Shown: positions 23,612-63,135 of the stretch, piece by piece | Layout of the letters: each line of letters begins with the position of its first letter | Position numbering within the stretch: the stretch's first letter is position 1 | NCBI RefSeq assembly: GCF_006345805.1 | Contig: NC_043012.1 | Coordinates: forward strand, 14,074,001 to 14,138,000 | Source of the DNA: Octopus sinensis | Taxonomy: Eukaryota | Direction of reading: 5' to 3' | Length of the DNA stretch: 64,000 nucleotides | Program-made: the position numbers and the translations under genes | The notes under the pieces: generated by a model | The model's database searches: none | What the model was told of the DNA's origin: nothing | What the model saw: the letters and a program-made list of their open reading frames with translations, nothing else

Positions 23612-24975
23612 ATCATCATCATCATTGTTCGACCGTGGTCGAGACAATGGAATTTACCATGCTACGCCAGACTTCACGGTCCATCATGGCATTACGGAGG
23701 TCCTGTTGCTGGATGCCTGTATCCCTGGAGATTACATCAGGGTAGGAGAGTGTGCGCCCTCTGGTATTGCGAGTAGATGGCTTCCAGAGGAGAAGAGTAG
23801 AAATTACTTCTTTTTCAGCGCTACAACAATGTCCAGCAAACTGGACTCTCCTACCTTTCACAAGAGATGACACAGGTGGTAGTTTCCCATATATTTGCAT
23901 TTTGGTTGGATGGCGCTTCCACGAGATATTTTGAGCTCTCATAAGGAGGCGAGTGTAGGTTCCATCCAACCGCCTCTCAAGCTTCTTTGATAACGTCCAG
24001 GTTTCTGAGCCATATAGTAGGATTGGTTCGACTGTGGCTTTGAATATTTCAAGTTTGAAGTCTCTACTTAGATTTGATGACCAGATCTTATGCATGTCAT
24101 TACAGGCTGACCAGGCCATACCCTTTCTAGTTAGAAAGTCTTTTCCAGATGATGATATGTATGACCCAAGATATTTATAATCAGAAACCATATTTAAGGG
24201 CGCGTTGTTGAGAGTATGGATGATGCAATCACTGTTGGACAGGCACTTGTTTATGTATTCAGTTTTGGCCTCATTGAGGTAAAAACCTACACAATTTGAG
24301 GCTTGTTCAAGAGATTGTAAAAGAGACTGGGCATTGGAGAGAGAATCACTGATAAGAGCGATGTCGTCAGCAAAGTCAGTGTCTGTCAAGTACTCAGCTG
24401 GGTGTCTGGAACTTCTTCTTGGTTTTATTTCAAAGCCCTTGCCAGAGATGGTATCAACTGACATACGTAGCACATAATCAACAACAATGATGAAAATAAA
24501 TGGGGCGAGTGTGTCTCCCTGCAGTATTCCGGCTTTGATTGAGAAAGATGATGTTTCTCCGTCAGGGGTTAAGATGGTTGAAGACGTATCTGTGTATAGG
24601 ACCTTGATGGCAGAAATGATTTTGTCTGGTATCCCATAGAGCTTAAGGATTTCAAACATCTTGTACCTATCTACAGAATCGAACGCTTTAGAAAAGTCTA
24701 CAAATACCATTGCAAGATCGCGATTAAATGCTTTTGATTCTTCAATAAGTCTGCGTAAGCATAGTATCTAGCTCAGCGTTGAGCGCCCATGTCTGAATCC
24801 ATTTTGGTTCTTTCGGAGCAAAGGTTCAACAAAAAGGACAAGACGATTTAGGATCAGTTTGTTGTACAGTTTTGCAGCAATTGACATTAGAGATATACCC
24901 CTGTAGTTGGTGACGAGGGATAAATCGCCTTTTTTGGGTATTGAAATGATTTGAGATTGGTGCCAAATCTTTTGC
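23612..24975 (-). mobile_element. RTE-clade LINE, 5'-truncated, near-intact RT and complete 3' end
   Basis: IPKKGDLS..NYRGISL, QNGFR, FVDFSKAFDSV, GILQGDTLAP, FADD, YKYLGS, LLYGSETWTL; one in-frame TAG at 24770-24768; (TGA)n tail; lies within (TA)n. Confidence 0.95.
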
Positions 24976-27325: not shown

Positions 27326-28369
27326 ATGCACACACGCGCACACATACATACTCACACACACACACACACACGCACAGACACACACACACATATATATATA
27401 TATCTCAAATTGATGTATTACAATACTATTCCACAGCCATGCCTCAATCCAACACATCTCCATCATCAGTTGCCCCACGGATATCATTATATGTACCAAT
27501 CAATCCAGCGGTGTCGAAAGCACTAAAATAAGTGTTGTTTGAGAACAAACAAACAAACAAACCAAGGAAACAACAACTTTCAAACACATTTACCCAATGT
27601 ACAGCCGGATCGATAAATAAATTCCATAAGTAAATTACCAACCTTCCAAAATATTTAACTAAACAATGACAAATTTATTAAGTCATGAAAAATTATAATC
27701 CTTACCGTCTTCGAGCAGTGTAATATAAAAGTAAAGCTTAATAACCTCATTATTTCAGTCAAGCAATATATAGGCAGGATTAACCACTAACCTTACTAAA
27801 ACTACAAGAGATATTGAAACCAATGAACACTGTATCGGTATTAATAATAAACTTCAATAATTAAATTATTTTCTAAATTGAAAAGTTCATATAAATAATC
27901 CCTCGGGTCTTCTATGATGAAAGTTCAGACCGTATAATTTTTTTCAAAAATAAAACACGTCTGAAATTAATTTAACTTATATTTTTATGAGTGAAATACA
28001 TTATTTCATCATTCAAAAGTTAATAAAAAAAACACTATATACTCAGTACTATATCACCACTACAAGTTATATATATATTAAGTTACCGGTGACTAATACA
28101 TACTTAAATTTTATTAAATAGGAACTAATAAAAGTACTTGTAATAAACTAATATTATGAATCTTGTTATGACTACAGCAAATTAAACTACTTAAAAGACA
28201 ATAAAACTGTTTAAAAAAACAAAAAACTACAAGTATTAATACATACATATTTAATCAGACACGCGGCCCACTCACCAAAAATTTAAAGAGCAACTATATA
28301 GATATATATATATATATAGATAGATAGATATAGATATAGATATATATACGGGTGTGTGTAATTGTGTTT

Positions 28370-29570
28370 AGAAGAATATATTAATAAAAGGAATTCCAAC
28401 CTTGTCTGATTTTCACGTTTTATTTACAATCTTATAATGATATATTATAAGATAATATAATATAATAGAATAAAATAAAATAGTAGAATGTTAAATGTTC
28501 ATTCTGATTGAACTAGTACTTTCATGCATTAAATTCTGCAATCTTCAGGTTCATGTAGTAGTGGTGACAGTCATGCTTCACAATTTTTGACTGTAGCGAG
28601 ATGGTTAAATCTGTGCCTTAAATACACCTGTGTGGGCTCCGGTTTGCTTGGTTTTGCAAACTGTATTCTGACCAATCAGTGTGTAGCATCACTCAATTAC
28701 TTAAGCTGATTGGTTGGTTTAGGCGTCACGCTTTGTTGAACATGTCAAGAGAACTGTATCTTAACCCTGGCCAAGGCAGCAATTGTTGGGCTATTTTTAG
28801 AAATGTTGTAAATAGACTTTGTCAGGGATTTTTATATTTCAATTGTCATCATCATCATTGTCAACACCTTAATTATTGTTGCTAGTGGTGATGGTGGTGG
28901 CAATAGAACTTTTAACCCTAAATAAGATAATTTTCCTGTTATCTTCATCTTGATCACCTTTAGTATTGTTGTTGTTGTTTGTGGTCATGGTCGTAGCAGT
29001 AGAAGTAGTACCTCTAAGTATTATTATTATTGCTTATTTATCTTGGGTTCGAATTTATCAATAAAATTCTTTTCTCTGATTTTCCTCTCGATTTCACTTG
29101 GGCTGTGTAATTTGTAGAATGGAAATATTATATATATTTTCCGACCACATGTTGCTAGGTGGTTACTCAAAGGTATCTTATATAACCTGTTGTCGGTGTA
29201 CACGTGAGCATTCTGATAGTGCATTTCCCGTCTGACCTACATATATTTTTTCACAATTTGGGCATTTGATGCAGTAAATTAAATTTCTGCTTTTGCAGTT
29301 CATATTCGCGTTTGTGAATATTTTCCCGGTTTTTGTGTTTATATATTGGCCGGTATGTATGAATTGGCATGTGCCACATCGGCTATCATTGCATTTAGAT
29401 ACAGTGAATGTTTGGTCTTTGTTGCTAAGGTCAAATTTTGCCTTTGTTAGTAATTTTTTCAAGTTTTTAGGCTGTCTTTTACTAAGAACTATAGCTCGAT
29501 CCGTGATTATATCTTTTAATTCATTACTTTGAGCAATGATTGGTAGGTTTGCTTTGGCAATGTTGAAGAT
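28370..29570 (-). mobile_element. Penelope-like element 3' part (GIY-YIG endonuclease + pLTR region)
   Basis: RQPKNLKKLLTKA, C.DSRCGTC, MNCKSRNLIYCIKCPNCEKIYVGQTG, then after a frameshift LSNHLATC...RKIREKNFIDKFEPKIN. Confidence 0.9.
28509..28553 (-). ncRNA. Minimal type-I hammerhead ribozyme
   Basis: ugaac-CUGAAGA-u-ugca(gaauuuaa)ugca-u-GAAA-guac-UA-guuca: 5-bp stem I, 4-bp stem II, palindromic stem III (AGUACU), CUA cleavage triplet. Confidence 0.8.
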
Positions 29571-33877: not shown

Positions 33878-36678
33878 ACTTAGAATAACTTAGAAAGGTT
33901 TTTGGCCAGTATTGGCCCAGGCCATGTCTAACTTAATAGCACCACCTGGCGAAGTCTTTCAGTTCAGGATTTGGGCACCAAGGCCCATTCGAGCAGAGAG
34001 TTATTGTTTGCGGAGACATATCCGGGTGTGGGTGGTTTGTCCGGTACTGTTTGAAGGAATTTGTCCAAAGACTTCTTGAATTTTGTGTGGTCAGTTTCTT
34101 TTTTGACGTGTCCTGGTGTAATGTTGAAGAGAGCGGGTCCAATTGAGGTGAAATAGTTGTGCCGTATTGTCGTTATGTGATGCGATTTAGATTTTTGTTG
34201 TGGACGGATGGCACGTGGTCCAAGCCTTGGATGCATTTTGAAGGTGATGCCAACATCATTCGGACAGTGCTGATGGAATATTTTCCACATCATACAGATA
34301 ATGTAGCGTTCACGGCGTCGTTGGAGTGAATACAATTCAGCTTCTCTAGTCTACCCCAGTAGTCAAGGTCTGACATGCCATCTATCTTTTTGTGATTGAC
34401 CTTTGGGGAGCTTCAATTCTCATAATATTTTGTTTTGTGTAGGGAGACCACAGTGGACAGCAGTATTCAAGGTGGGATCGGGCAAAAGTGGAGAAGAGAA
34501 GGATAATAGCGTGGGAATCTCTCGACTGGAAGGTTCTGAGAATCCAGGAACACATTCTGCGGGCCATGTCAACTTTGCTGCTTATATGTGTAGCCCAGCT
34601 TATGTTGTTGTCCTGTTTACTACTCCCAGGTCTCTGATGTTGTTGGATGCCATGAGAATTTCTCCAGAAGGAAGAGAGTATGGGAGTTTCAGAGCGTCCT
34701 CCCTTCCAAAGTGGATCAGTTCGAATTTGTCTTCATTTAGCAACATGTTATTCTTTTCCGCCCATTGGACAACAGCCAGTAGGTCTGACTGAAGGTTTAT
34801 TCGGTCATCCACGCCATTGATGACCTTCTGGAGCTTGGAATCATCAGCGAAGGTTCTAATGTTGCTGTGTTTGATGGTGTCAGTAATATCATTTATGTAG
34901 ATGATGAAGAGAAGTGGGCCCAACACAGTGCCTTGTGGGACACCACTGCTGACTTTGGCTGGGCTGGATTTTACCCCTTCGACTACAACATGTTGGGTTC
35001 TGTTAGAGAGGAAGCACTTGATCCATTGCAGCAGCTTTCCAGTGACACCAATATTGGACAGCTTTCTCAGAAGGATCTTATGATCAACCCTGTCAAAGGC
35101 CTTGCTGAAATCAAGGTAGATGACATCAGTGTTGGAACCCTCTCTCCAAGGCTCTCAAAATGTCATCAAAATGATGCAGTAGCTGCGTCAGGCAATCTCT
35201 CCCATTACGGAATCCATGCTGGTTGGGGTTCAGCATATTATGACTCTCAGGAAGTGAGTCATATGCGATCTCAGCACCCTCTCAAATACCTTGATGATAT
35301 GAGAGGTGAGTGAGATTGGACGGTAATTCACGGCAAGCGATTTGTTTCCTTTTTTGAAAACTGGGACAACAGACTGGGATAGAAGGTCTTCTGGTATATA
35401 TCCAGCATCCAATGAGTTCCGCCACAGATTGGCTAGAGGGGTGCAAGTTGGTTTTGACACATCTTCAAGACACAAGCAGGGAACCTATCGGGACCTACTG
35501 CTGAATTATGCTTCATTTCCTTTATTGCTGCTAAGACATCAGAGCGCCAAATGTTATGTCCGATAAGTGTATTGGGGAGTAACATCACTTGATACAGCCC
35601 AGATCAGTCATCAGGATTGCTGAAAACAGAGCAATATTGTTTCTGCAATATTTCTCCCATTTTTGGCATTGTCTTGAAGAGTACCATTTTCATCAATCAG
35701 AGGGCCAACAGTAGAACCAGTGACTCTGTGTTTTTTTTGCAAATGAAAAGAACACTTTGGGATTGAGTTTGATCTTCTCAATGGCCCAGGCCTCTTCAGC
35801 TCTTCGCTGACTATTGATGATAGACATCATGTTGGTTTTGGAGTTTATGTTTTTAATCTCTAGCGACGAGATGGCAGTCAGGTTGGTGTGTTGCTGTTGA
35901 CAGTATTTCAGCATGTTGATCTTTTTGTTGATTCTTTTAATTTTCCTTATGAGAGATTTTCTATTTCTAGAGGGATTCGACACTTAGATTTGTTTGCAGA
36001 TCTTAATGGGGTGTGTCTTGCACATATGTTCGTGATGGTGTCTACAAGTGACTGCCAGGACTTTTTGATGTTAGTGGGTGTGTATGTGTGCGTGAAGGAC
36101 CAATCGACTTGTGCAAGATCATTATTGATCGCTTCCCAGTTTGCATTGTGGAAATCCATAGTGTCAAATGGATGAGCAGGAGGGATGACATTGTTTTGCA
36201 TTTTGGCCAGTGAAATCTCAGATCACAGAGAACCATGTCATGGTCGGAGAGTAGGGTTTTCTCCACTGCAATATTGTGGATAGTATCAGTGTGATTGCTG
36301 AAAATTAAGTCTAAGACGTTTTTGTGACATCTCGTTAGTTCGAGTACCATTGGGACAAGAGAAGTCATCCATGAAGTCAAGAAGCGATTCCACTGCCTCC
36401 CTGTCAGGGTTGAGAGAGAAGAACCTGGCGGCAGACTGTTTGTAGACCAGTCAACCCCGGGAAGGTTGAAATCTCCCATCATTAAAATGTTGTCAGGTTG
36501 ACACTGCTGAATGAAACACTTTATGCTGTTGAGGCATTCCTTGAAGCATGGTAGGGGCGTTTGGGGTGGTCTGTAGAGCCCAACTACTGTTAAGTTGTTG
36601 GTTTGACTGAATACAGCGACTGCTTCGCAGTATCCATTCGAAAATATGTTCATGGCTTCTGTTGAGAATGAATCATGG
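33878..36678 (-). mobile_element. CR1/L2-group LINE ORF2 (APE + RT), 5'-truncated and frameshifted
   Basis: LYRPP, MGDFNLP, LDLIFSN, LSDHDMV; FKKGNKSLAVNYRPISLTS; GVPQGTVLGPLLFIIYIND, FADDSKL; YSLQRRRERY; short 3' terminal repeats (ctaagtta). Confidence 0.95.
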
Positions 36679-36688
36679 ACATATATAT

Positions 36689-36723
<35 letters not shown>

Positions 36724-36817
36724 GACAGACAGACAGAGACAGAGAGAGAAAGGAGGAATAAAGAGGTAGAAGAGAAGAGAGCGGAGATATATAGATGTCC
36801 ATATACATATACGTGTG

Positions 36818-36859
<42 letters not shown>

Positions 36860-37049
36860 TGTGTGTGTGTGCGCGCGTCTCTATGTATATATGTACAGAC
36901 ATATACGTATATATGTATATATATATGCAAGTATGTATGTATATATATATATATATATATGGTCAGGGTTAGGAGTAAGGGTTAGGGGAAGCTACTTTTA
37001 TGTCGAAACGTATCATAGTAACGCGACGCTATTTTTCATAAATCACAAT

Positions 37050-46479: not shown

Positions 46480-47350
46480 TTGAGTAAAAACCAATGAACC
46501 ACTGAATCAAGGCACGTTATTCTTGAGTAGCATCTTTTGGGTGTTTGTTTTCCTTGGATGTGTCTTGGGTTAAATTTCTTTTGGTGGTTAATTTTTTTGC
46601 ATTATTTTACATTATTTGTTATTATTCCGGCCATGGTGTTCTTGTACTTGTATGCTGAGGTAGTTCGTCAGTGGAGCATATTTCTTCTTTGTGTGGAGTT
46701 TTTGTGCTTTGTGCGTTCATGTTTAAGAGAGGGGCCATCCTGGTAGACCTACCCTCGACTATTGAGTGTAAAATATTGCTTGTGTATGCAAAGAGAGACG
46801 GCCTCACCCCTTACGTTTAAGATGTTATCTTATGATTCAATAATGTTTAATCTGCCAGTAATACACAGTTCACATTTGGTACCCCGTCTTCTGTATTTCA
46901 TGGTTTTACCAATAATTTTCCATTTTATCTGGGGGTTGCTTATTCCACCTTCTTTGAATGTCCATATCATATTTGATAGAGATATCGCATGTTTTTGGTA
47001 TTTGTCTCTGAATGACACAAAATGATGTGTATACCTTTCCTTCAACAAGTTGCCCGTCTTTCCGATATACGTATTTGCCATTCCGTTGAGGTCCGTGATC
47101 TTGGCCTTGTATACGAGTTCTTTCTCGAGACTGTTTTTGTTTAGAGGGCAGCGGTTTGGGAATGTGAAGCTGCATTGTCTTTCTGGGGTGTTTCTGGTGT
47201 GATTATGTTTATTGTGATTGAGGATTATTGATCTTATATTGGTGAGGTAAATATAGCTAACTTTAACTATTTTTGTAGTATGAATGTCTTGTATTCTGTT
47301 CTAAAAATAGCTAATGGTTGACATTTTACCCTTACTGAATAGGGGAGAGG
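46480..47350 (-). mobile_element. Penelope-like element, GIY-YIG region
   Basis: VKVSYIYLTNI..I..HN, RCPL...ELVYKAKI, TYIGKTG...KERYTHH..SFR, LS..IW, CELC. Confidence 0.88.
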
Positions 47351-52002: not shown

Positions 52003-52047
<45 letters not shown>

Positions 52048-52227
52048 GCACCTGGTTATTACCTGAGTAAGTACGGTCCTTGGTAAAGTTGTACGGTAGC
52101 AGGTAGTCCGGTAGGTAGACCGTAGTATAGTTTATATACGAGAAGAAAATGGATGTAAATAACAAAGAGAAACTCGTAGTTTTCGCTGGTATGTCTTTAA
52201 TTTAATTAATTAACAAAGAAGAAGGTA

Positions 52228-52278
52228 GCATTTACGATCGTTTCAATTTACTAGTTTTAGTAAATATCTTCAGAATGC
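52228..52278 (-). ncRNA. Minimal type-I hammerhead ribozyme
   Basis: gcauu-CUGAAGA-u-auuuacua(aaac)uaguaaau-u-GAAA-cgaucg-UA-aaugc: 5-bp stem I, 8-bp stem II, palindromic stem III (ACGAUCGU), GUA triplet. Confidence 0.85.
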
Positions 52279-52799
52279 GAAAAATAGATTGATACACCGG
52301 TCAGAATTCGAAAAATAAATTGATATATTGGTAATGGTAATAATCAAAATTTGTTAGTCTTATATTATATTTTGTTCTTAAGTTGATTATTTCACTTGGG
52401 AGTGGATTTCATTGTTGTAGATTGGTTAGTTTATTGTTTCGTTGCCCAATTAGAGCGGGGTGTATATTATTTTGGTGAGTAATCCCGAATTTGACTAAGC
52501 ACATTTTTTGCATACGTATGTATTTAATTGGTTTAAATCAGTGGAGAGTTTTAGTCACCGGCGGTGTAAGTGAAGGGGGATAACTCTAGAAAGGGAGCTA
52601 ACTCAAACCGGTTTATTTACACTAGGTAGGTTGTTTATTATTATTATGGCTAAAGTTTAGGAAGTTCATTGAGATAAAAGGGGTCCTATCATGGAATGCG
52701 GAGGGCGAGTGGGGTTGGGGGTGACTGTTTATGTGTAAGTGCTGAAGGTGGTTCCCAGCTAATTAGACTTATATAGATGAATAGGCTAGTGTGGGTCCT

Positions 52800-53870
52800 A
52801 CTATCTTACTGATACTTTGAAAATACACAAAGGCCTACATATACCTCAAATACATAAATGCTTCTAGTAACCAGCCAAACTTTATTAAGAGAAGCCTAAT
52901 ACATAGCATTAGCAATAGAATATCACGCCTCTCTTCCAACATAAATATCTTTAATAGGCATAAGAAAAATTTATAATACCGCACTACAGAAAGCAAGATT
53001 TAAACAAAATATTAAATACTTTGACCTTGATCACCATCAAGTAGCCCAATCATTAATCCCATTAACACCAACCATGCACCATACATCACCACAAACTACA
53101 CGATCAATACGAACAGTATGGGTAACCCCAACAAAAACAGCACCAATATGAACAACGCCGAGACACATACACAAACCACAAATGACAACAAAAATAACCA
53201 CAACACTAACACCGATGAAGTGATAATCAATAAAACTAACAATATTAACAAAACTAATAACACCAAGTACACAAACAAGCCCCAAAATAACATTAGCTAC
53301 AAAAATGATAATATAAACCTACACATCGGTATGAATAAAACTAAAGCAACCCAACGAACCTATATGAACCCTCATATGCAAACAACACCAATAGAACAGG
53401 CAAAACTAATAGGAAAGTGAAACCTAACTATAGAAATAAGCAAGATAGCCATAACCATAACTTCACACACGACTCACAAACAAGGAGGGTAGATTCTATA
53501 CTAGACAAAAATATACAATGCAAAAAATAAACAAAATAGTGATAATATTTGGTTCGTAATCCCCTACACCTTGCACCTCAAATCGAACATAGTTCGCTCA
53601 TTAATGAAAATCATAGATAAACACCTAAATGTAAATGATAAATGCGCAAAATTATTTAGGAATAAAATTAGAGTAAGCTACAGCTTGACCAACAACTTAG
53701 CTACAATGATAGCCTCAATAATTAAAAGAATCTAGACAAGTTCTATGAAACTAGAAAGATTGTAAACAATAAAAATAATAACCAACCAACTAATAGAACT
53801 AAGCCCACCACTAACGTAGCGCATCCTGCTAACTTCGATATCGACCTGAATAGTAATACCACCACCACCC
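52800..53870 (+). mobile_element. Penelope-like element, RT C-terminal/linker region
   Basis: YINASSNQPNFIKRSLIHSISNRISRLSSNINIF, YNTALQKARF, IWFVIPYT, IRVSYSLTNNLA. Confidence 0.8.
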
Positions 53871-53872
53871 TA

Positions 53873-54453
53873 AAACTGTTTACCAAATGGCTTTGTAATT
53901 AGGAAAGTTTTACTTTCAAATTTATAAGGTTAAAAAAAAAGTATTTTAAAAAGTTTTACGGGTGATTAGCATTTTTTTCCTGGAGGTTCTTATTACTTGC
54001 TGCTGGCTATGTGACTGCACTTGAGTGCTTGATTTCATAACACAGAGTCAAGCACACAGCTCGCACATGTAATTTCTGAGAGTATTCAGGTACATAATGC
54101 AATGTCTTAGCGATTCCACTGACGATGTACGGATAACAAATTAATTTATTTGTTCATTAATGCATAAACTCGAATTTAAGGTTAACTATTAATAAATTTT
54201 GTTTTCATTCTCTTTGGAATTCCTTTTTTTTTTCTTGGTTTGGGTTTGACTGCTCTTTTTAACATGTAAGGAGTCCTGTGAAGGGTGCCTTCTCTGTATA
54301 TAAATCTTAATACACTCTTATATATGAAAATATGCTGTCTATTGAGTTTTATTACACATGCTAAACACCGGTAAAAATAAATTATAATTGTTTTACTCTT
54401 ATAATTTTCACAGTAAAATTTTCCTAATTACAAAACCATTTGGTAAGCAGTTT
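53873..54453. mobile_element. MITE with ~42-bp terminal inverted repeats; a partial second copy lies at ~54455-54880
   Basis: 53873-53914 and 54412-54453 are reverse complements with 3 mismatches; internal ~53990-54410 is repeated, diverged, directly downstream. Confidence 0.8.
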
Positions 54454-54914
54454 AAATTTATTATTTGCTGCTGGCCACGTGGCTATGCTTGCGCGCTTGA
54501 TTTGATAACATAATGTGTAAGTATGCAGCTCGCACTTGTAATTTCGGTACGTATTAAGCAGCATAATTATGCATTGTCTTAACGTTCCCACAGACGAAGT
54601 ACGGATGACAAATTAATTCATGTGTTCATTAATACAGAAAATCGAGTATGGGGTTAACTATAAATAATTTTTGTTTTCATTCTCTTTAGAATTACTTTTT
54701 TCGTGATTTGGGTTTGACAGCCCTTTTTATCATGTAAGACGTCCTGTCAATGATTTTTTCTGTGTATAAACCCTTATACACACTTATATATGAAAATATG
54801 TTTTCTGTTGACTTTTACTATGCATTCTAACCACCAGAAAAAAATTTATTCTAATTTCCTTTATTCTTATAATCTTCACAATATGTGTGTGCGTGTGTGT
54901 TCTACTAAAACGTC

Positions 54915-56899: not shown

Positions 56900-58150
56900 T
56901 TCATTTATTTGCTACCAGAGCAAAGGATGAGGGGGCAGTACAAAGATAGATATAAAGTGTGGTGGTTTACATATAATGAAATGATAGGGGAAAATGTAAG
57001 AATACACGGTATACAATGGAAAAGAAGGGTTATACACATAATATACAAAGGTTAAAAAATTCTGAGGAGAGGGTGATAGAGATGTAGCCCGCCAGATACA
57101 AGATGATGTATAGGAATAATCAAGGAACCCCACCGTCGTGATTTCCCTGAACAACAAGAGCAAGTACTCACTCCAGTTCTTTCTCTCCGACTCACAGGTC
57201 TACACTTAGACAGGTACCATCCACTCTTACCATTTTCGCAACTTTCACCCACCTTTCAATAAACTCACTTGAAGACAGCATTTCCCTCTCCACTCTCAGT
57301 TCCCTTTTCAAGTGAAACTTGAAGAAGTCAATTCGAGCTCTACCAAATAGGAAATTATCTGTCCTCATGCCTTTCAGCCTTGTCCATTAAACAACCTCTT
57401 TCGCCACAGCCACCAGGGAAAGAAAAACTGCCTTGCCTGCCCGAATGAAGTAGGGTGGCGGAGTAATCATCCCTACAGACTCGACCGACAGACGGATCCG
57501 TCCCACACGTGACATCAGCTGTTCAACATAACCACACCAAGTCCGCAATGTCCAGACACTGAACGAGTGCACGCAGGACGGTTCCGTCACTCTGCGTGCA
57601 CTTCGAACAAGCCCGTCTGACAGCACAACCGTACCTGTAGAGATTATCTCGAACCGGTAACGCCACCTGGTAGCACTGCCAAGCCAAGAACACCTGGAAC
57701 TTATCCATGACAGTTTCCGACCGCAAAGTCCTCCGATAAAGACTAGCCAGTTCGTTTTCGATGAAGCTCAATGTCTCTCCGAGAACGTATCGCACTTGCC
57801 CGCCACTAATCCTCCATGCGTCCAAAATCCCATTCTAGTCTCCTACAAGTTCTAAACTGTGAGACGTTCCCAGGAATGTTTCTAGACGCCTGAAGAATCC
57901 TAGCCTTCCAGCATAAACGACTACCAATCTAAGGGCGCCACCTTCGCCACTATTCACATCTAGAACCACCAACCTGCCGCCCGGGTCCAAGAAGATTCCC
58001 TTTACTTCGAGACTTAAGGATTTTCGGAATAGCGCTGCTACCCCGCCGCTCGCTCCCGACAGACCCAATGATGAGAATATCTCATAGTCTTCGATAATGG
58101 GCGCTAGTGCTTGCGCATTAGAAATCTTTGTCTCACTAATTGCAGCCAAG
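56900..58150 (-). mobile_element. Tx1/L1-like ORF2 remnant lacking the RT core
   Basis: APE: ISETK, GGVAALFRK, DPGGRLVVLD, LVGD*N; joined directly to the C-terminal zinc finger AWQCYQVALPVRD...CSKC...ALVQC. Confidence 0.8.
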
Positions 58151-58169
58151 AAGTGGGGTATAATGCACC

Positions 58170-59510
58170 TGAAATGAGGTAAGGTACATCCCTTGCAGGG
58201 AAAGAATAACCTTATAGGGAAATGGTTAAACACATTAAAAAAGAAGGCTGCAAATACCTTTGCATACGAGAGTTCCACGAAATAATGGAGAAGGAAATCA
58301 AAGAGCAACTAAGGATGGAATATTCCGAAGAATAAAATTGGCGTTGCGCTCGAAATTGACCGGATGGTATAAACTCCCAGCTGTTAATACAAGGGCGATA
58401 GCATCACTTAGGCATGGAGTTGGAATCATAAAATGACAAAACAAAAAGAACTGGTGAACATACATACGAAGAAAAATATTGACAGTGTACGGAGTTTTCC
58501 ATCCTAAGAGCGACACAGATAGGCTGTACTTGCCCAGAAGAAAGGGTGGGAGAGATTTAATCAGTTCACAGGATTGTATCGAAAAGAGGCAAACAGCTTA
58601 GGGTGGTATGGTATGTAAAAAATACCGTGGAAACATTGTTGAAGCATATAAAGAAAATAATTGTGTTAAGAAAGAAAACCACTAAGAGGGGAACAGTGCA
58701 CAAAAAAGTAACAGCAAGGAAGGATAAAAATGTATGCTCAATTTGCAAGAGAGACGAACGCCAAAACAGCTAAAGAAGACCAGTGGCTATGGATTAGGAG
58801 GATTGACTTGAAGATAGATAAAGAAGGATTTATGTGCGCAGCTGAAGAACAATCGTTAAGGATTATGTGAAGTGCAGAATTGACAACACCACCGAGAGCG
58901 ACAAATGTAGAATGTGTGGTGAGAGGGGTGAAACGGTGTGGTAGAGGGGTGAAACGATGTAGCACACCGTTAGCAAAATGCCCATAATTGGCACAAAAGA
59001 CTTCATGATTATGTGACTAGAATGATCTGTGGAAATTACAGCCTACAAAAAGCAAAGACGTGATATGAGCAAACTCTAGAAGTAATCACCGAGAACGAAA
59101 ATTGCAAAATCTTGTAGGATCACCTGTGCAGACATCATAAACTGGACATTGCTGGGGTAGAAAAAAAGAAAGAACATGCACGATAATCGTCATAGCATGT
59201 TCTGAACACAACAGGAATAAAGAGAAAGAAGAAAAACTGAACAACTCTGATTCGAAGTGAGAAATAGAAGAATGTGGTCAATGAGGGAAGTAGACGTGAT
59301 AGCAATAGTAACTGGCGCAGTTGGAAGTAGCAACACTCAAGTAACAACGTGGTACAAAATGATTGGGGCAAAAGTAAAGGTAAAACGCATACAAAACTCA
59401 GCATTGCTTGGAACTGCAAGAATTCTTCGCAGGGTTCGAGAAGAATGACCAGCAAACGAGTCTCTCCTTAGTCTGCTGGCTGCTGGAAGCTGACACTTTC
59501 CATCATAACA
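58170..59510 (+). mobile_element. R4/Dong-like element, decayed C-terminal half
   Basis: AVNTRAI.SLR.GVGII, FHPKSDTDRLYLPRRKGGR.L, CAAEEQSLR, CRMCGERGET, RRMWSMREVDVIAIVTGAVG, ALLGTARILRRV; followed by (TAA)n. Confidence 0.88.
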
Positions 59511-61719: not shown

Positions 61720-62728
61720 TGATGGTGTCACAAGAATACACTGGTAACTGCGCAGCCTGATGATCGCTACCTCATATGAGTGATAATGAAAAAACAAAAT
61801 ATTGTGAATAACGGTGGTAATGAAAGTGAAGCCATTGATGGTGATAGTGTTACACCCGGTAGGCTCAGAGATTCTGGTCCTGCTCCAGCCTGTCGATATC
61901 CAGAAAGGGACCACCACACACGGTGTAGACGGGGCAAGCAAATTAATACTGTGGTCATGGAGTGTTACTACCTGAGCAGCCCAGTAGATGAAAATGGTGC
62001 TCAAATTAGAGGTTACCGACAACGTATGTATGATCATTGGAGAGAAAAGGGATTGTTTCAACTCACGGAACAGAGACTGTGTTATCAAACTAGAGCAATA
62101 AGAAAAAATTGTTGTTTCACAGAAGTAGAGCTCGAAGCTATCAAAAGACGGGTCATGGAAAATAGCAGCGGAGATAACAATGAAAATACAGTTCTTACTA
62201 ATAAGAGTAATCCCACAGCACAGGAATGGAGCAGGTGTAGTTTACTTGATGAGAGACATAGATGATCTAAAAGAAGACAATAAAACTAATGGTGACATGA
62301 CAGATGAACAATTGGCAATCTACGACAGAAAAAGGTAAGAGTACAGGAGAACATTAGCGACATTATTTGCAAAGGTTGATTGATGGAAATTGAACCAAGA
62401 AACGAAAAATGTCAATGAAATTCTTAAATACATCAGAACAAATAACATCACAGAAACAAATAATTTGATAAAGGCAGCAAGTATTGTTGTAGCAGAAAAC
62501 GTGGGCGTTGATGTCAAGAAAAAGAAATATAGTGGGCGTGACAAAAGAAAAGATCCATGGTGGAAAAGAAGAATCCAGGCAGGGTTAGACATGATTTCGA
62601 AGGAAATCTCTCTTTTAGAGCGAAAAGTGAAAGAGGAGCTGAAAAGCGAACAAAAATACAGGGCACTGAAAAGGAGGTATAATATTGAAAGAAAGGGCCT
62701 GAAAGTAGTAGTGGAGGAACTGAAACTG
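61720..62728 (+). mobile_element. R4/Dong-like element, N-terminal region
   Basis: VMECYYLSSP..GYRQRMYDHWREKGLFQLTEQRLC..ELEAIKR; ITETNNLI; PWWKRRIQ; RYNIERKGLKVVVEELK. Confidence 0.85.
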
Positions 62729-62829
62729 AATTCCTCTCAACACTATGGCTATGATGCTTCCCCAATACTTCTGCTTGTAATCAGTAATGCACATATCGTC
62801 AGTCTTATTATTATTATTATTATTATTTT

Positions 62830-62883
<54 letters not shown>

Positions 62884-62935
62884 GAGTAGTAGTATCTTTA
62901 CTATTATCATCATCATCATCATCATCATCATCATT

Positions 62936-63135
62936 AAGGTGGTGAGCTGGGAAAAATGCTGAGTGAATTTTTCGTCCGTCCTTACGTTCTGAGTTCAAAT
63001 TCTGCCGAGGTCTGCTTTGCTTTTCATCCTTTCGGATTTCATATTAAAAGGTAATAATGAAAAAAACTGAGGTCGCTGTAGTCGATTAACGTCTTCTCTC
63101 TATCACTGATGAACTTGTACCAAAATTTCAAGCAA
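62936..63135 (+). mobile_element. SINE family C
   Basis: aaggtggtgagctgg...ttacgttctgagttcaaattctgccgaggtc...tcatcctttcgg; lies between trinucleotide repeats. Confidence 0.85.

What the first reader, a model, noticed from the sequence alone, without database searches (positions are those of the whole stretch)
52228..52278. Best-formed hammerhead ribozyme, antisense and upstream of a Penelope RT fragment
Seen: complete core, 5-bp stem I, 8-bp stem II, 8-nt palindromic stem III and a GUA triplet. Its helices differ in sequence from the 28509 motif, yet the architecture is the same, including U10.1-U11.1. It lies ~520 nt upstream of, and opposite to, the 52800-53870 Penelope ORF fragment. Established: 5'-truncated Penelope insertions often carry an inverted pLTR. 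Inference: a lineage of dimer-dependent hammerheads with a U-U variant, retained better than the adjacent decayed ORF.
Basis: partly seen in the sequence, partly recalled or inferred. Interest (0 to 1): 0.75.

Follow-up and report, generated by a model that had tools for sequence, protein, structure and literature searches.

The report
Penelope hammerhead caught mid base-pair swap
This is a real hammerhead-shaped RNA motif in the tail of an old, broken Penelope-type jumping gene, predicted to cut itself only when two copies pair up; its odd U-U spot is already known from relatives, and copies across the genome likely record that spot changing one letter at a time from U-A through U-U and G-U to G-C.

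Summary
The motif is real: complete core, 5-bp stem I, 8-bp stem II under a U10.1-U11.1 mismatch, palindromic stem III, GUA site; none in 100 shuffled windows. It lies, sense, in the 3' UTR of a decayed Hydra-clade Penelope-like element. In the window that 3' end is the inverted, tail-bearing arm of a head-to-head insertion whose other arm (RT thumb) is cut off at a TIR element. U-U is not new: 14 of 25 published Hydra families carry it, and Perreault 2011 reported it. The 28509 motif belongs to a different, younger PLE clade, so there is no single U-U lineage. The motif is not significantly better kept than the ORF (0/51 changes versus about 4%, P 0.10-0.26). What the data add: rooted trees order this family's copies U-A (outgroups), U-U, G-U, G-C, with the window copy among the last U-U branches; and truncated arms start more often just after the predicted cut (24 versus 8), a hint of in-vivo cleavage. 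Cleavage itself is untested. The scan already noted Hydra hammerheads and two-armed insertions on other DNA, but not this family.

The parts
52228..52278 (-). Minimal type I hammerhead motif, U10.1-U11.1, 8-bp stem II, palindromic 8-nt stem III; predicted cut 52233/52232
52005..52043 (.). (TA)n microsatellite, likely insertion target
   Evidence: Hydra preference for (TA)n in PMC8557442 section 11
52044..52132 (-). Optional ~89-nt 'tail'; in a near-full-length sister copy (L146) the same sequence lies just upstream of the ORF, i.e. it is the start of the next unit
52133..52805 (-). 3' UTR / pLTR of the Hydra-clade element (~670 nt); 52133-52140 is the common tail-less 3' end, ~95 nt after the predicted cut
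52806..52840 (-). Last ten codons and stop of the element's ORF (after the CxH motif); 5' truncation point of the inverted arm
52841..52842 (.). Head-to-head junction, 2 nt matching neither arm
   Evidence: alignments
52843..53872 (+). Second arm: decayed RT thumb, ~190-aa Asn/Thr/Lys-rich insert, 'IWF' block; linker cysteines, endonuclease and 3' end missing
   Evidence: no remainder in the window or the next 20 kb
53873..54453 (.). Element with 76-100-nt terminal inverted repeats (MITE-like) that abuts the broken end of the second arm; partial tandem copy 54458-54883
28509..28553 (-). Second hammerhead (U-U, 4-bp stem II), sense in the 3' UTR of an unrelated, younger Neptune/Nematis-type PLE at 28295-29570

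Best explanation
The motif is the hammerhead in the 3' UTR of an old, broken Hydra-clade Penelope-like retrotransposon, predicted to cut only as a dimer, and its U-U spot is likely a passing stage in the family's history rather than the mark of a new ribozyme type. How it would work in the active element (inferred): a head-to-tail tandem RNA carries two copies about 3.6 kb apart; their palindromic stems III pair into an 8-bp helix, probably helped by the element's RT-endonuclease, and cleavage ~300 nt upstream of the next start codon would trim the RNA. Reverse transcription starts at two sites ~95 and ~190 nt downstream of the cut, giving two head-to-head arms, one with and one without the tail (arm pattern shown; the two starts inferred from PAc). 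Copies that contain the whole motif, like this one, were copied from RNA left uncut at that site. The window copy is a lone fossil with no partner in cis and is probably inert. Along the family's master lineage the 10.1-11.1 pair went U-A, U-U, G-U, then G-C alternating with G-U (order from rooted trees; the first step crosses an unsampled branch).
For: Shown: motif above chance. Colinear copies run RT thumb, CxCx5C linker, GIY-YIG-type domain with CxxC and CxH, stop, UTR, hammerhead in sense, 3' end at (TA)n; near-full copies show RWK (L174) and DKT (L146, L151), the Hydra marks of PMC8557442 section 11. Core + stems I and III are identical at 27 of 28 ungapped columns between this family and its sister subfamily, against 62-78% in flanks (Fisher p 0.001); non-CpG columns with subfamily-level variants 5 of 46 in the motif versus 86 of 284 nearby (p 0.007); stem II differs by two double changes (10.2, 10.8). 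The dimer fold is the cofold minimum (-23.6 kcal/mol), the monomer hammerhead fold has probability 0.003. Three trees (UTR without ribozyme columns, 43 and 67 rows; coding region, 46 rows) place U-U copies as a basal grade and all G10.1 copies on one starred branch; outgroups share the U-U-group letter at 47 vs 8, 28 vs 8 and 25 vs 4 informative columns, and U-U monophyly is rejected (AU p 0.011). Arm 5' ends: 24 in -2..+24 versus 8 in -29..-3 of the cut (p 0.0035; 18 vs 7 by insertion, p 0.02), the largest step of 10 offsets tried. From papers: U-U in 14 of 25 Hydra families; U-U is the most active mispair at this position (PMC3088659); protein-assisted cleavage and two RT starts in PAc (PMC11167929).
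Against: No cleavage data. Pfam and the homologue search did not name the protein pieces, so clade rests on motifs read by eye, not on a tree with published RTs. No intermediate between the U-A sister (25-nt stem II region) and U-U (22 nt) was found among 112 places; the branch is long (0.13 coding, about 0.3 UTR), so the root could be pulled to one end. Terminal branches are about equal along the ladder (medians 0.059-0.068), so there is no age gradient to confirm direction. 11.1 flips between U and C several times, partly explainable by CpG decay. The AU group was named after I had seen the first tree. The 5'-end step has confounds: both queries began at the cut, the stretch after it is AT-rich and palindromic, and RT could stall at the helices; only 7 of 53 arms in -100..+30 start within 3 nt of the cut. 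PAc cleavage mutants still insert in vitro.
Confidence: 0.75

Rival explanations
1. The fold is kept as a binding or RT-positioning signal, or rides along as a passenger; it seldom or never cuts, which is why 10.1-11.1 is free to wander.
For: Every intact copy was copied through an uncut site; metazoan minimal hammerheads cleave poorly (PMC4209133); PAc insertion does not need cleavage and no reads end at its site (PMC11167929); Naiads are reported to thrive without canonical hammerheads.
Against: Catalytic core positions carry no shared variant among 37 copies and are kept across sister and distant subfamilies while stem II turns over; 5' ends step up at the cut.
Confidence: 0.2
2. The pair changed in the opposite direction: G-C is ancestral and U-U is a late, degenerate state of a dying subfamily.
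For: G10.1-C11.1 is the hammerhead consensus; U-U copies are few; the root sits on a long branch; no age gradient in terminal branches.
Against: Two nested outgroups share U10.1 and the U-U-group letters (47 vs 8, 28 vs 8, 25 vs 4); AU p 0.011 against a U-U clade.
Confidence: 0.12
3. The RT piece is an internally primed inversion (twin-priming type) of one minus-strand insertion, not the remnant of a second arm that once reached the 3' end.
For: The arms are head-to-head with ~400 nt of element missing between them, and no remainder lies within 20 kb; L099 and L107 also have second arms ending inside the endonuclease.
Against: The piece ends against a TIR element, not a (TA)n target; family insertions often end both arms at the 3' terminus, one with the tail.
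Confidence: 0.2
4. One reading: one lineage of U-U hammerheads links the two window motifs and this copy is preserved by selection at the locus.
For: Both motifs have U-U and palindromic stem III; 0 of 51 private changes.
Against: Different PLE clades; U-U common in unrelated hosts; 0 of 51 is expected in 10-22% of cases at the flanking rates; other copies show CpG decay in stem III.
Confidence: 0.04

Closest known systems
Hammerheads of Hydra-clade PLEs (Craig et al. 2021, PMC8557442; sections 5, 6, 11, passages, supplement parts 1-2 of 59 and search hits read)
   Same: Sense, near the 3' end; type I with short self-complementary stem III; U at both 10.1 and 11.1 in 14 of 25 families; (TA)n targets; inverted 5'-truncated copy giving an opposite-strand motif (Penelope-13_HM); RWK, DKT, CxCx5C, CxxC, CxH.
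   Different: Not one of the listed families; longer unit (~3.6 kb vs under 3 kb), ~670-nt 3' UTR, ~190-aa Asn-rich insert after the thumb, ~89-nt tail; published U-U stems II are 3-5 bp, this one 8 bp; the paper files the U's under 'core' and, in the parts I read, does not discuss the pair or its history.
Minimal hammerheads of metazoan PLEs (Cervera and de la Pena 2014, PMC4209133; parts 1-2 of 4 read)
   Same: Long stem II, short stem I, palindromic stem III, predicted dimer dependence, dual motifs on opposite strands.
   Different: That paper lists G10.1-C11.1 and an extra nucleotide after A9 as conserved; this copy has neither.
Natural U10.1-U11.1 hammerheads (Perreault et al. 2011, PMC3088659; section 8 and passages read)
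   Same: Same mismatch, described as the most active mispair there.
   Different: Not tied to a retroelement lineage or to a path of changes.
PAc (Poseidon) of Anolis (Frangieh et al. 2024, PMC11167929; parts 1-2 of 4 read)
   Same: Two RT start sites bounding the tail; AT-rich targets; insertion from uncut RNA; model for protein-assisted cleavage.
   Different: Other clade; its hammerhead overlaps the start codon, here the cut would lie ~300 nt upstream; tail about 89 nt rather than 30-40.

Membership tests
Minimal type I hammerhead | Core C3UGANGA9, G12AAA, U16.1-H17 | tested here: met
Minimal type I hammerhead | Stems I and II, open stem I, palindromic stem III allowing a dimer | tested here: met
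   stem II double changes versus sister subfamily
Minimal type I hammerhead | G10.1-C11.1 (consensus, with known exceptions) | tested here: not met
   U-U in this copy; G-C in 37, G-U in 27, U-A in 27, U-U in 4, other 2 of 97 parsed relatives. Not obligatory:
Minimal type I hammerhead | Match to an Rfam hammerhead model | tested here: not met
   no hammerhead hit at E<=1 or E<=10
Minimal type I hammerhead | Self-cleavage | not testable with these tools
   only an indirect step in arm 5' ends
Hydra-clade PLE | C-terminal GIY-YIG-type endonuclease after RT | tested here: met
   read by eye in colinear copies L031, L032, L034, L036; missing from the window copy; no Pfam support
Hydra-clade PLE | CxCX5C linker, CxxC and CxH, no CCHH | tested here: met
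   against section 11 and the Hydra alignment rows
Hydra-clade PLE | RWK and DKT motifs | tested here: met
   RWK in L174 (inside the family), DKT in L146 and L151 (sister subfamily); decayed copies vary (RWE in L146, DKV in L174)
Hydra-clade PLE | (TA)n insertion and sense 3' hammerhead | tested here: met
Hydra-clade PLE | Generally under 3 kb (typical, not strict) | tested here: not met
   L146 unit about 3.65 kb, owing to the Asn-rich insert and long UTR
Hydra-clade PLE | RT phylogeny with published Hydra proteins; absence of IFD | not tested
   published proteins were only read in the supplement
Naiad PLE | N-terminal endonuclease, no canonical hammerhead | tested here: not met
   endonuclease is C-terminal, hammerhead canonical in order
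Non-LTR retrozyme | Non-coding tandem repeats with a hammerhead in each unit | tested here: not met
   single motif attached to a coding element; definition from bioRxiv 10.64898/2026.07.22.740005, part 1 of 5

The most novel reading that the evidence does not exclude
Dead copies of one retrotransposon lineage preserve a complete single-step walk of the hammerhead's most conserved stem II pair, U-A to U-U to G-U to G-C, taking three tolerated steps rather than two through a G-A or U-C mismatch, while the ribozyme kept cutting in vivo at every stage (arms piled up at the cut); the window copy is a pristine sample of the U-U stage. The same branch lost the unpaired C at step 4 of stem II that sister subfamilies keep.
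Probability: 0.4. Interest if true: 0.55.

Novelty: new member of a known kind. Interest (0 to 1): 0.33.

Why it matters
As given, it is an ordinary fossil of a described ribozyme-retroelement pairing. Its value is as a natural mutation series: four states of one base pair, three of them in nearly the same sequence background, each carried by a subfamily that transposed. That makes two open questions testable with short RNAs: whether PLE hammerheads must cut for transposition (called unclear in PMC8557442), and which mismatch intermediates compensatory RNA evolution can pass through (G-U and A-C routes are the ones in print in the listings).

Tried and rejected
Rfam scans: only microsatellite-driven or weak hits, no hammerhead. 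Pfam on four ORF pieces: nothing above cut-off. Homologue search with the endonuclease piece: 58 candidates, none at E<=0.001. Sequencing runs: no RNA holder listed; laying contigs of X1 and X2 showed other family copies, mostly G at 10.1, and cannot show expression, strand or cut ends. Search for the missing part of the second arm in the window and the next 20 kb: none. Extended stem I or loop I-II contact: no stable one seen in single folds; with 60-nt flanks the minimum-energy fold disrupts the hammerhead. Naiad assignment, considered first, rejected. One search was contaminated by a microsatellite in one reference and was redone; its counts are not used. Dating by terminal branch length gave no gradient. 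Lunse et al. 2017 (PMC5785218), the most relevant cleavage study, is not held; I saw only its title in a reference list, and it or the unread supplements of PMC4209133 and PMC3088659 may already cover U-U PLE hammerheads. Literature searches for the U-U pair and for such a walk; only PMC3088659 names U10.1.

Full report
Observation. A descriptor scan found two motifs in the window, this one and 28509-28553, and none in 100 shuffled windows. Rfam has no matching model and the 51-mer alone is not unusually stable.

What surrounds it. The window lies in a 2.7-Gb genome. 52060-52800 has 525 first-look candidates, 40 scored, 67-93% identical apart from the window itself. In colinear copies (L031-L034, L036) the order is RT thumb (homologous to 52843-53870), about 400 nt encoding a CxCx5C linker and a GIY-YIG-type domain with CxxC and CxH, the stop, a 670-nt UTR with the hammerhead in sense, and a 3' end in (TA)n. 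Near-full copies show RWK and DKT. These are the Hydra-clade marks of Craig et al. 2021 (PMC8557442 section 11; alignment rows). The assignment is by motif; Pfam and a homologue search named nothing and no tree with published RTs was made.

Geometry of the window copy. 52044-52840 is a minus-strand arm: last ten codons and stop, UTR, hammerhead, and an 89-nt tail against (TA)n. 52843-53872 is a plus-strand arm that starts in the thumb and stops against an element with terminal inverted repeats; no remainder was found in the window or 20 kb beyond. Family insertions are often two-armed (28 of 60 loci), commonly one arm with the tail and one without, which fits two RT starts as shown for PAc (PMC11167929). 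In L146 the tail sequence lies just upstream of the ORF, so in a tandem the cut would fall about 300 nt before the start codon.

Is U-U new? No. In Craig's File S2, 14 of 25 Hydra families have U at both positions (my count); all listed Hydra motifs are sense except the inverted copy of Penelope-13_HM. Perreault et al. 2011 reported the natural mismatch and cite it as the most active mispair there. The 28509 motif belongs to a younger family (copies 91-97% identical) with a CX4CxxC linker and a two-cysteine GIY-YIG, Neptune/Nematis type by motif; it has 431 exact pattern matches, 99 of the 100 listed being U-U. So U-U occurs in two clades and is compatible with a large recent expansion, but is not one lineage.

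Is it better kept than the ORF? The window copy has 0 private changes in 51 positions, against 38 of 971 and 43 of 990 in the ORF piece and 18 of 620 and 24 of 623 in the UTR (two reference sets); P is 0.10-0.22 by rate and 0.25-0.39 by Fisher test. Across 37 copies rare changes are 2.6% in the motif and 3.4% in near flanks (p 0.08; against all flanks p 0.0003, but copies were picked by aligning over the motif). Stem III CpGs decay in many copies. Selection shows instead between subfamilies: 27 of 28 ungapped core, stem I and stem III columns are identical to the sister subfamily against 62-78% in flanks, and shared variants are rarer in the motif (5 of 46 vs 86 of 284). This is selection on transposing masters, not on this locus.

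History of the pair. Among 112 places with an exact stem III 16-mer (of 161 in the genome, 100 listed; set enlarged by loci already held), 97 could be parsed: 37 G-C, 27 G-U, 27 U-A (sister subfamily), 4 U-U, 2 other; 15 were truncated or unparsed. Trees from the UTR without ribozyme columns (43 of 58 copies long enough; 67 of 126) and from the coding region (46 rows) give one ladder: outgroups U-A (also the distant long-stem copy L185), then a U-U grade with the window copy among its last branches, one starred branch to G10.1, first G-U, then G-C alternating with G-U, the deepest subfamily mostly G-C. Outgroups share the U-U-group letter at 47 vs 8, 28 vs 8 and 25 vs 4 columns, and a U-U clade is rejected (AU p 0.011; group named after the first tree). 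Against this: the U-A to U-U step crosses a long unsampled branch on which stem II was also rebuilt (10.2 and 10.8 double changes, C-A at 10.4 became U-A, loop shortened), terminal branches do not grow with depth, and CpG decay blurs G-C versus G-U.

Mechanism. Computed: the monomer hammerhead fold has probability 0.003, the palindrome duplex is -10.0 kcal/mol and the two-molecule active arrangement is the cofold minimum at -23.6, against -26.2 for a natural G-U copy and -31.2 for a G-C copy; for the one U-A copy tried (L125, which has a private stem II change) the cofold minimum kept only the stem III duplex. From papers: metazoan minimal hammerheads cleave weakly and as dimers (PMC4209133; review passages PMC6765202); PAc cleavage needs its protein and is dispensable for insertion in vitro. 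Inferred: cleavage trims tandem precursor RNA. A hint that it happened in vivo: in 60 loci found with sequence downstream of the cut (88 arms, 28 starting more than 120 nt upstream), 24 arms start at -2..+24 and 8 at -29..-3 (p 0.0035; 18 vs 7 insertions, p 0.02); 3 of 21 U-U-type arms start within 3 nt of the cut. The queries began at the cut, the downstream stretch is AT-rich and palindromic, and RT stalling could do the same, so this is suggestive only. The idea to test arm ends came from scan note e1-10329839. The window copy has no partner motif of its family in the window and is probably inert.

Verdict. A new family member of a known kind. The ordered base-pair walk is the part I could not find in print, with the limit that Lunse et al. 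2017 and several supplements were not seen.

Noticed in passing
window 28295-29570 (-): Young Neptune/Nematis-type PLE 3' part with its own U-U hammerhead; 1989 first-look candidates, 431 exact motif matches, frequent two-armed insertions; the better target for expression and cleavage tests.
   Followed up: partly
L126, L146, L200 and other sister copies; L184-L186: Sister subfamily keeps an unpaired C (C-A) at step 4 of stem II; more distant copies have a stem II region of 50-60 nt. The window's family lost both features yet kept transposing.
   Followed up: partly
window 53000-53540 (+): About 190-aa Asn/Thr/Lys-rich insert between RT thumb and the IWF block, where the two published Hydra rows I read have about 15-20 residues.
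   Followed up: no
window 53873-54883: MITE-like element with 76-100-nt TIRs followed by a 78% identical partial tandem copy.
   Followed up: partly
window 46830-47300 (-): Another Hydra-like linker and endonuclease fragment (156-aa open frame), a different family; no hammerhead found near it by my descriptor.
   Followed up: no
window 23622-24767, 34600-35154, 36042-36962, 57835-58308, 61780-62962: Non-LTR retrotransposon RT and endonuclease-like fragments by eye; no host gene was looked for systematically.
   Followed up: no
L095:4055 (-) and 4921 (+), about 14 kb past the window end: Opposite-strand pair of hammerheads with the same stem III palindrome but a ~57-nt stem II region and different stem I.
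   Followed up: no
all loci held (1.0 Mb): About 25 further hammerhead-like motifs of other families with varied 10.1-11.1 states (G-C, G-U, U-A, A-U, U-U, A-A, bulged), so the genome is rich in them.
   Followed up: no
L286, L287, L290, L293, L298, L329: Short near-perfect palindromic insertions in which both arms begin within about 25 nt after the predicted cut.
   Followed up: partly
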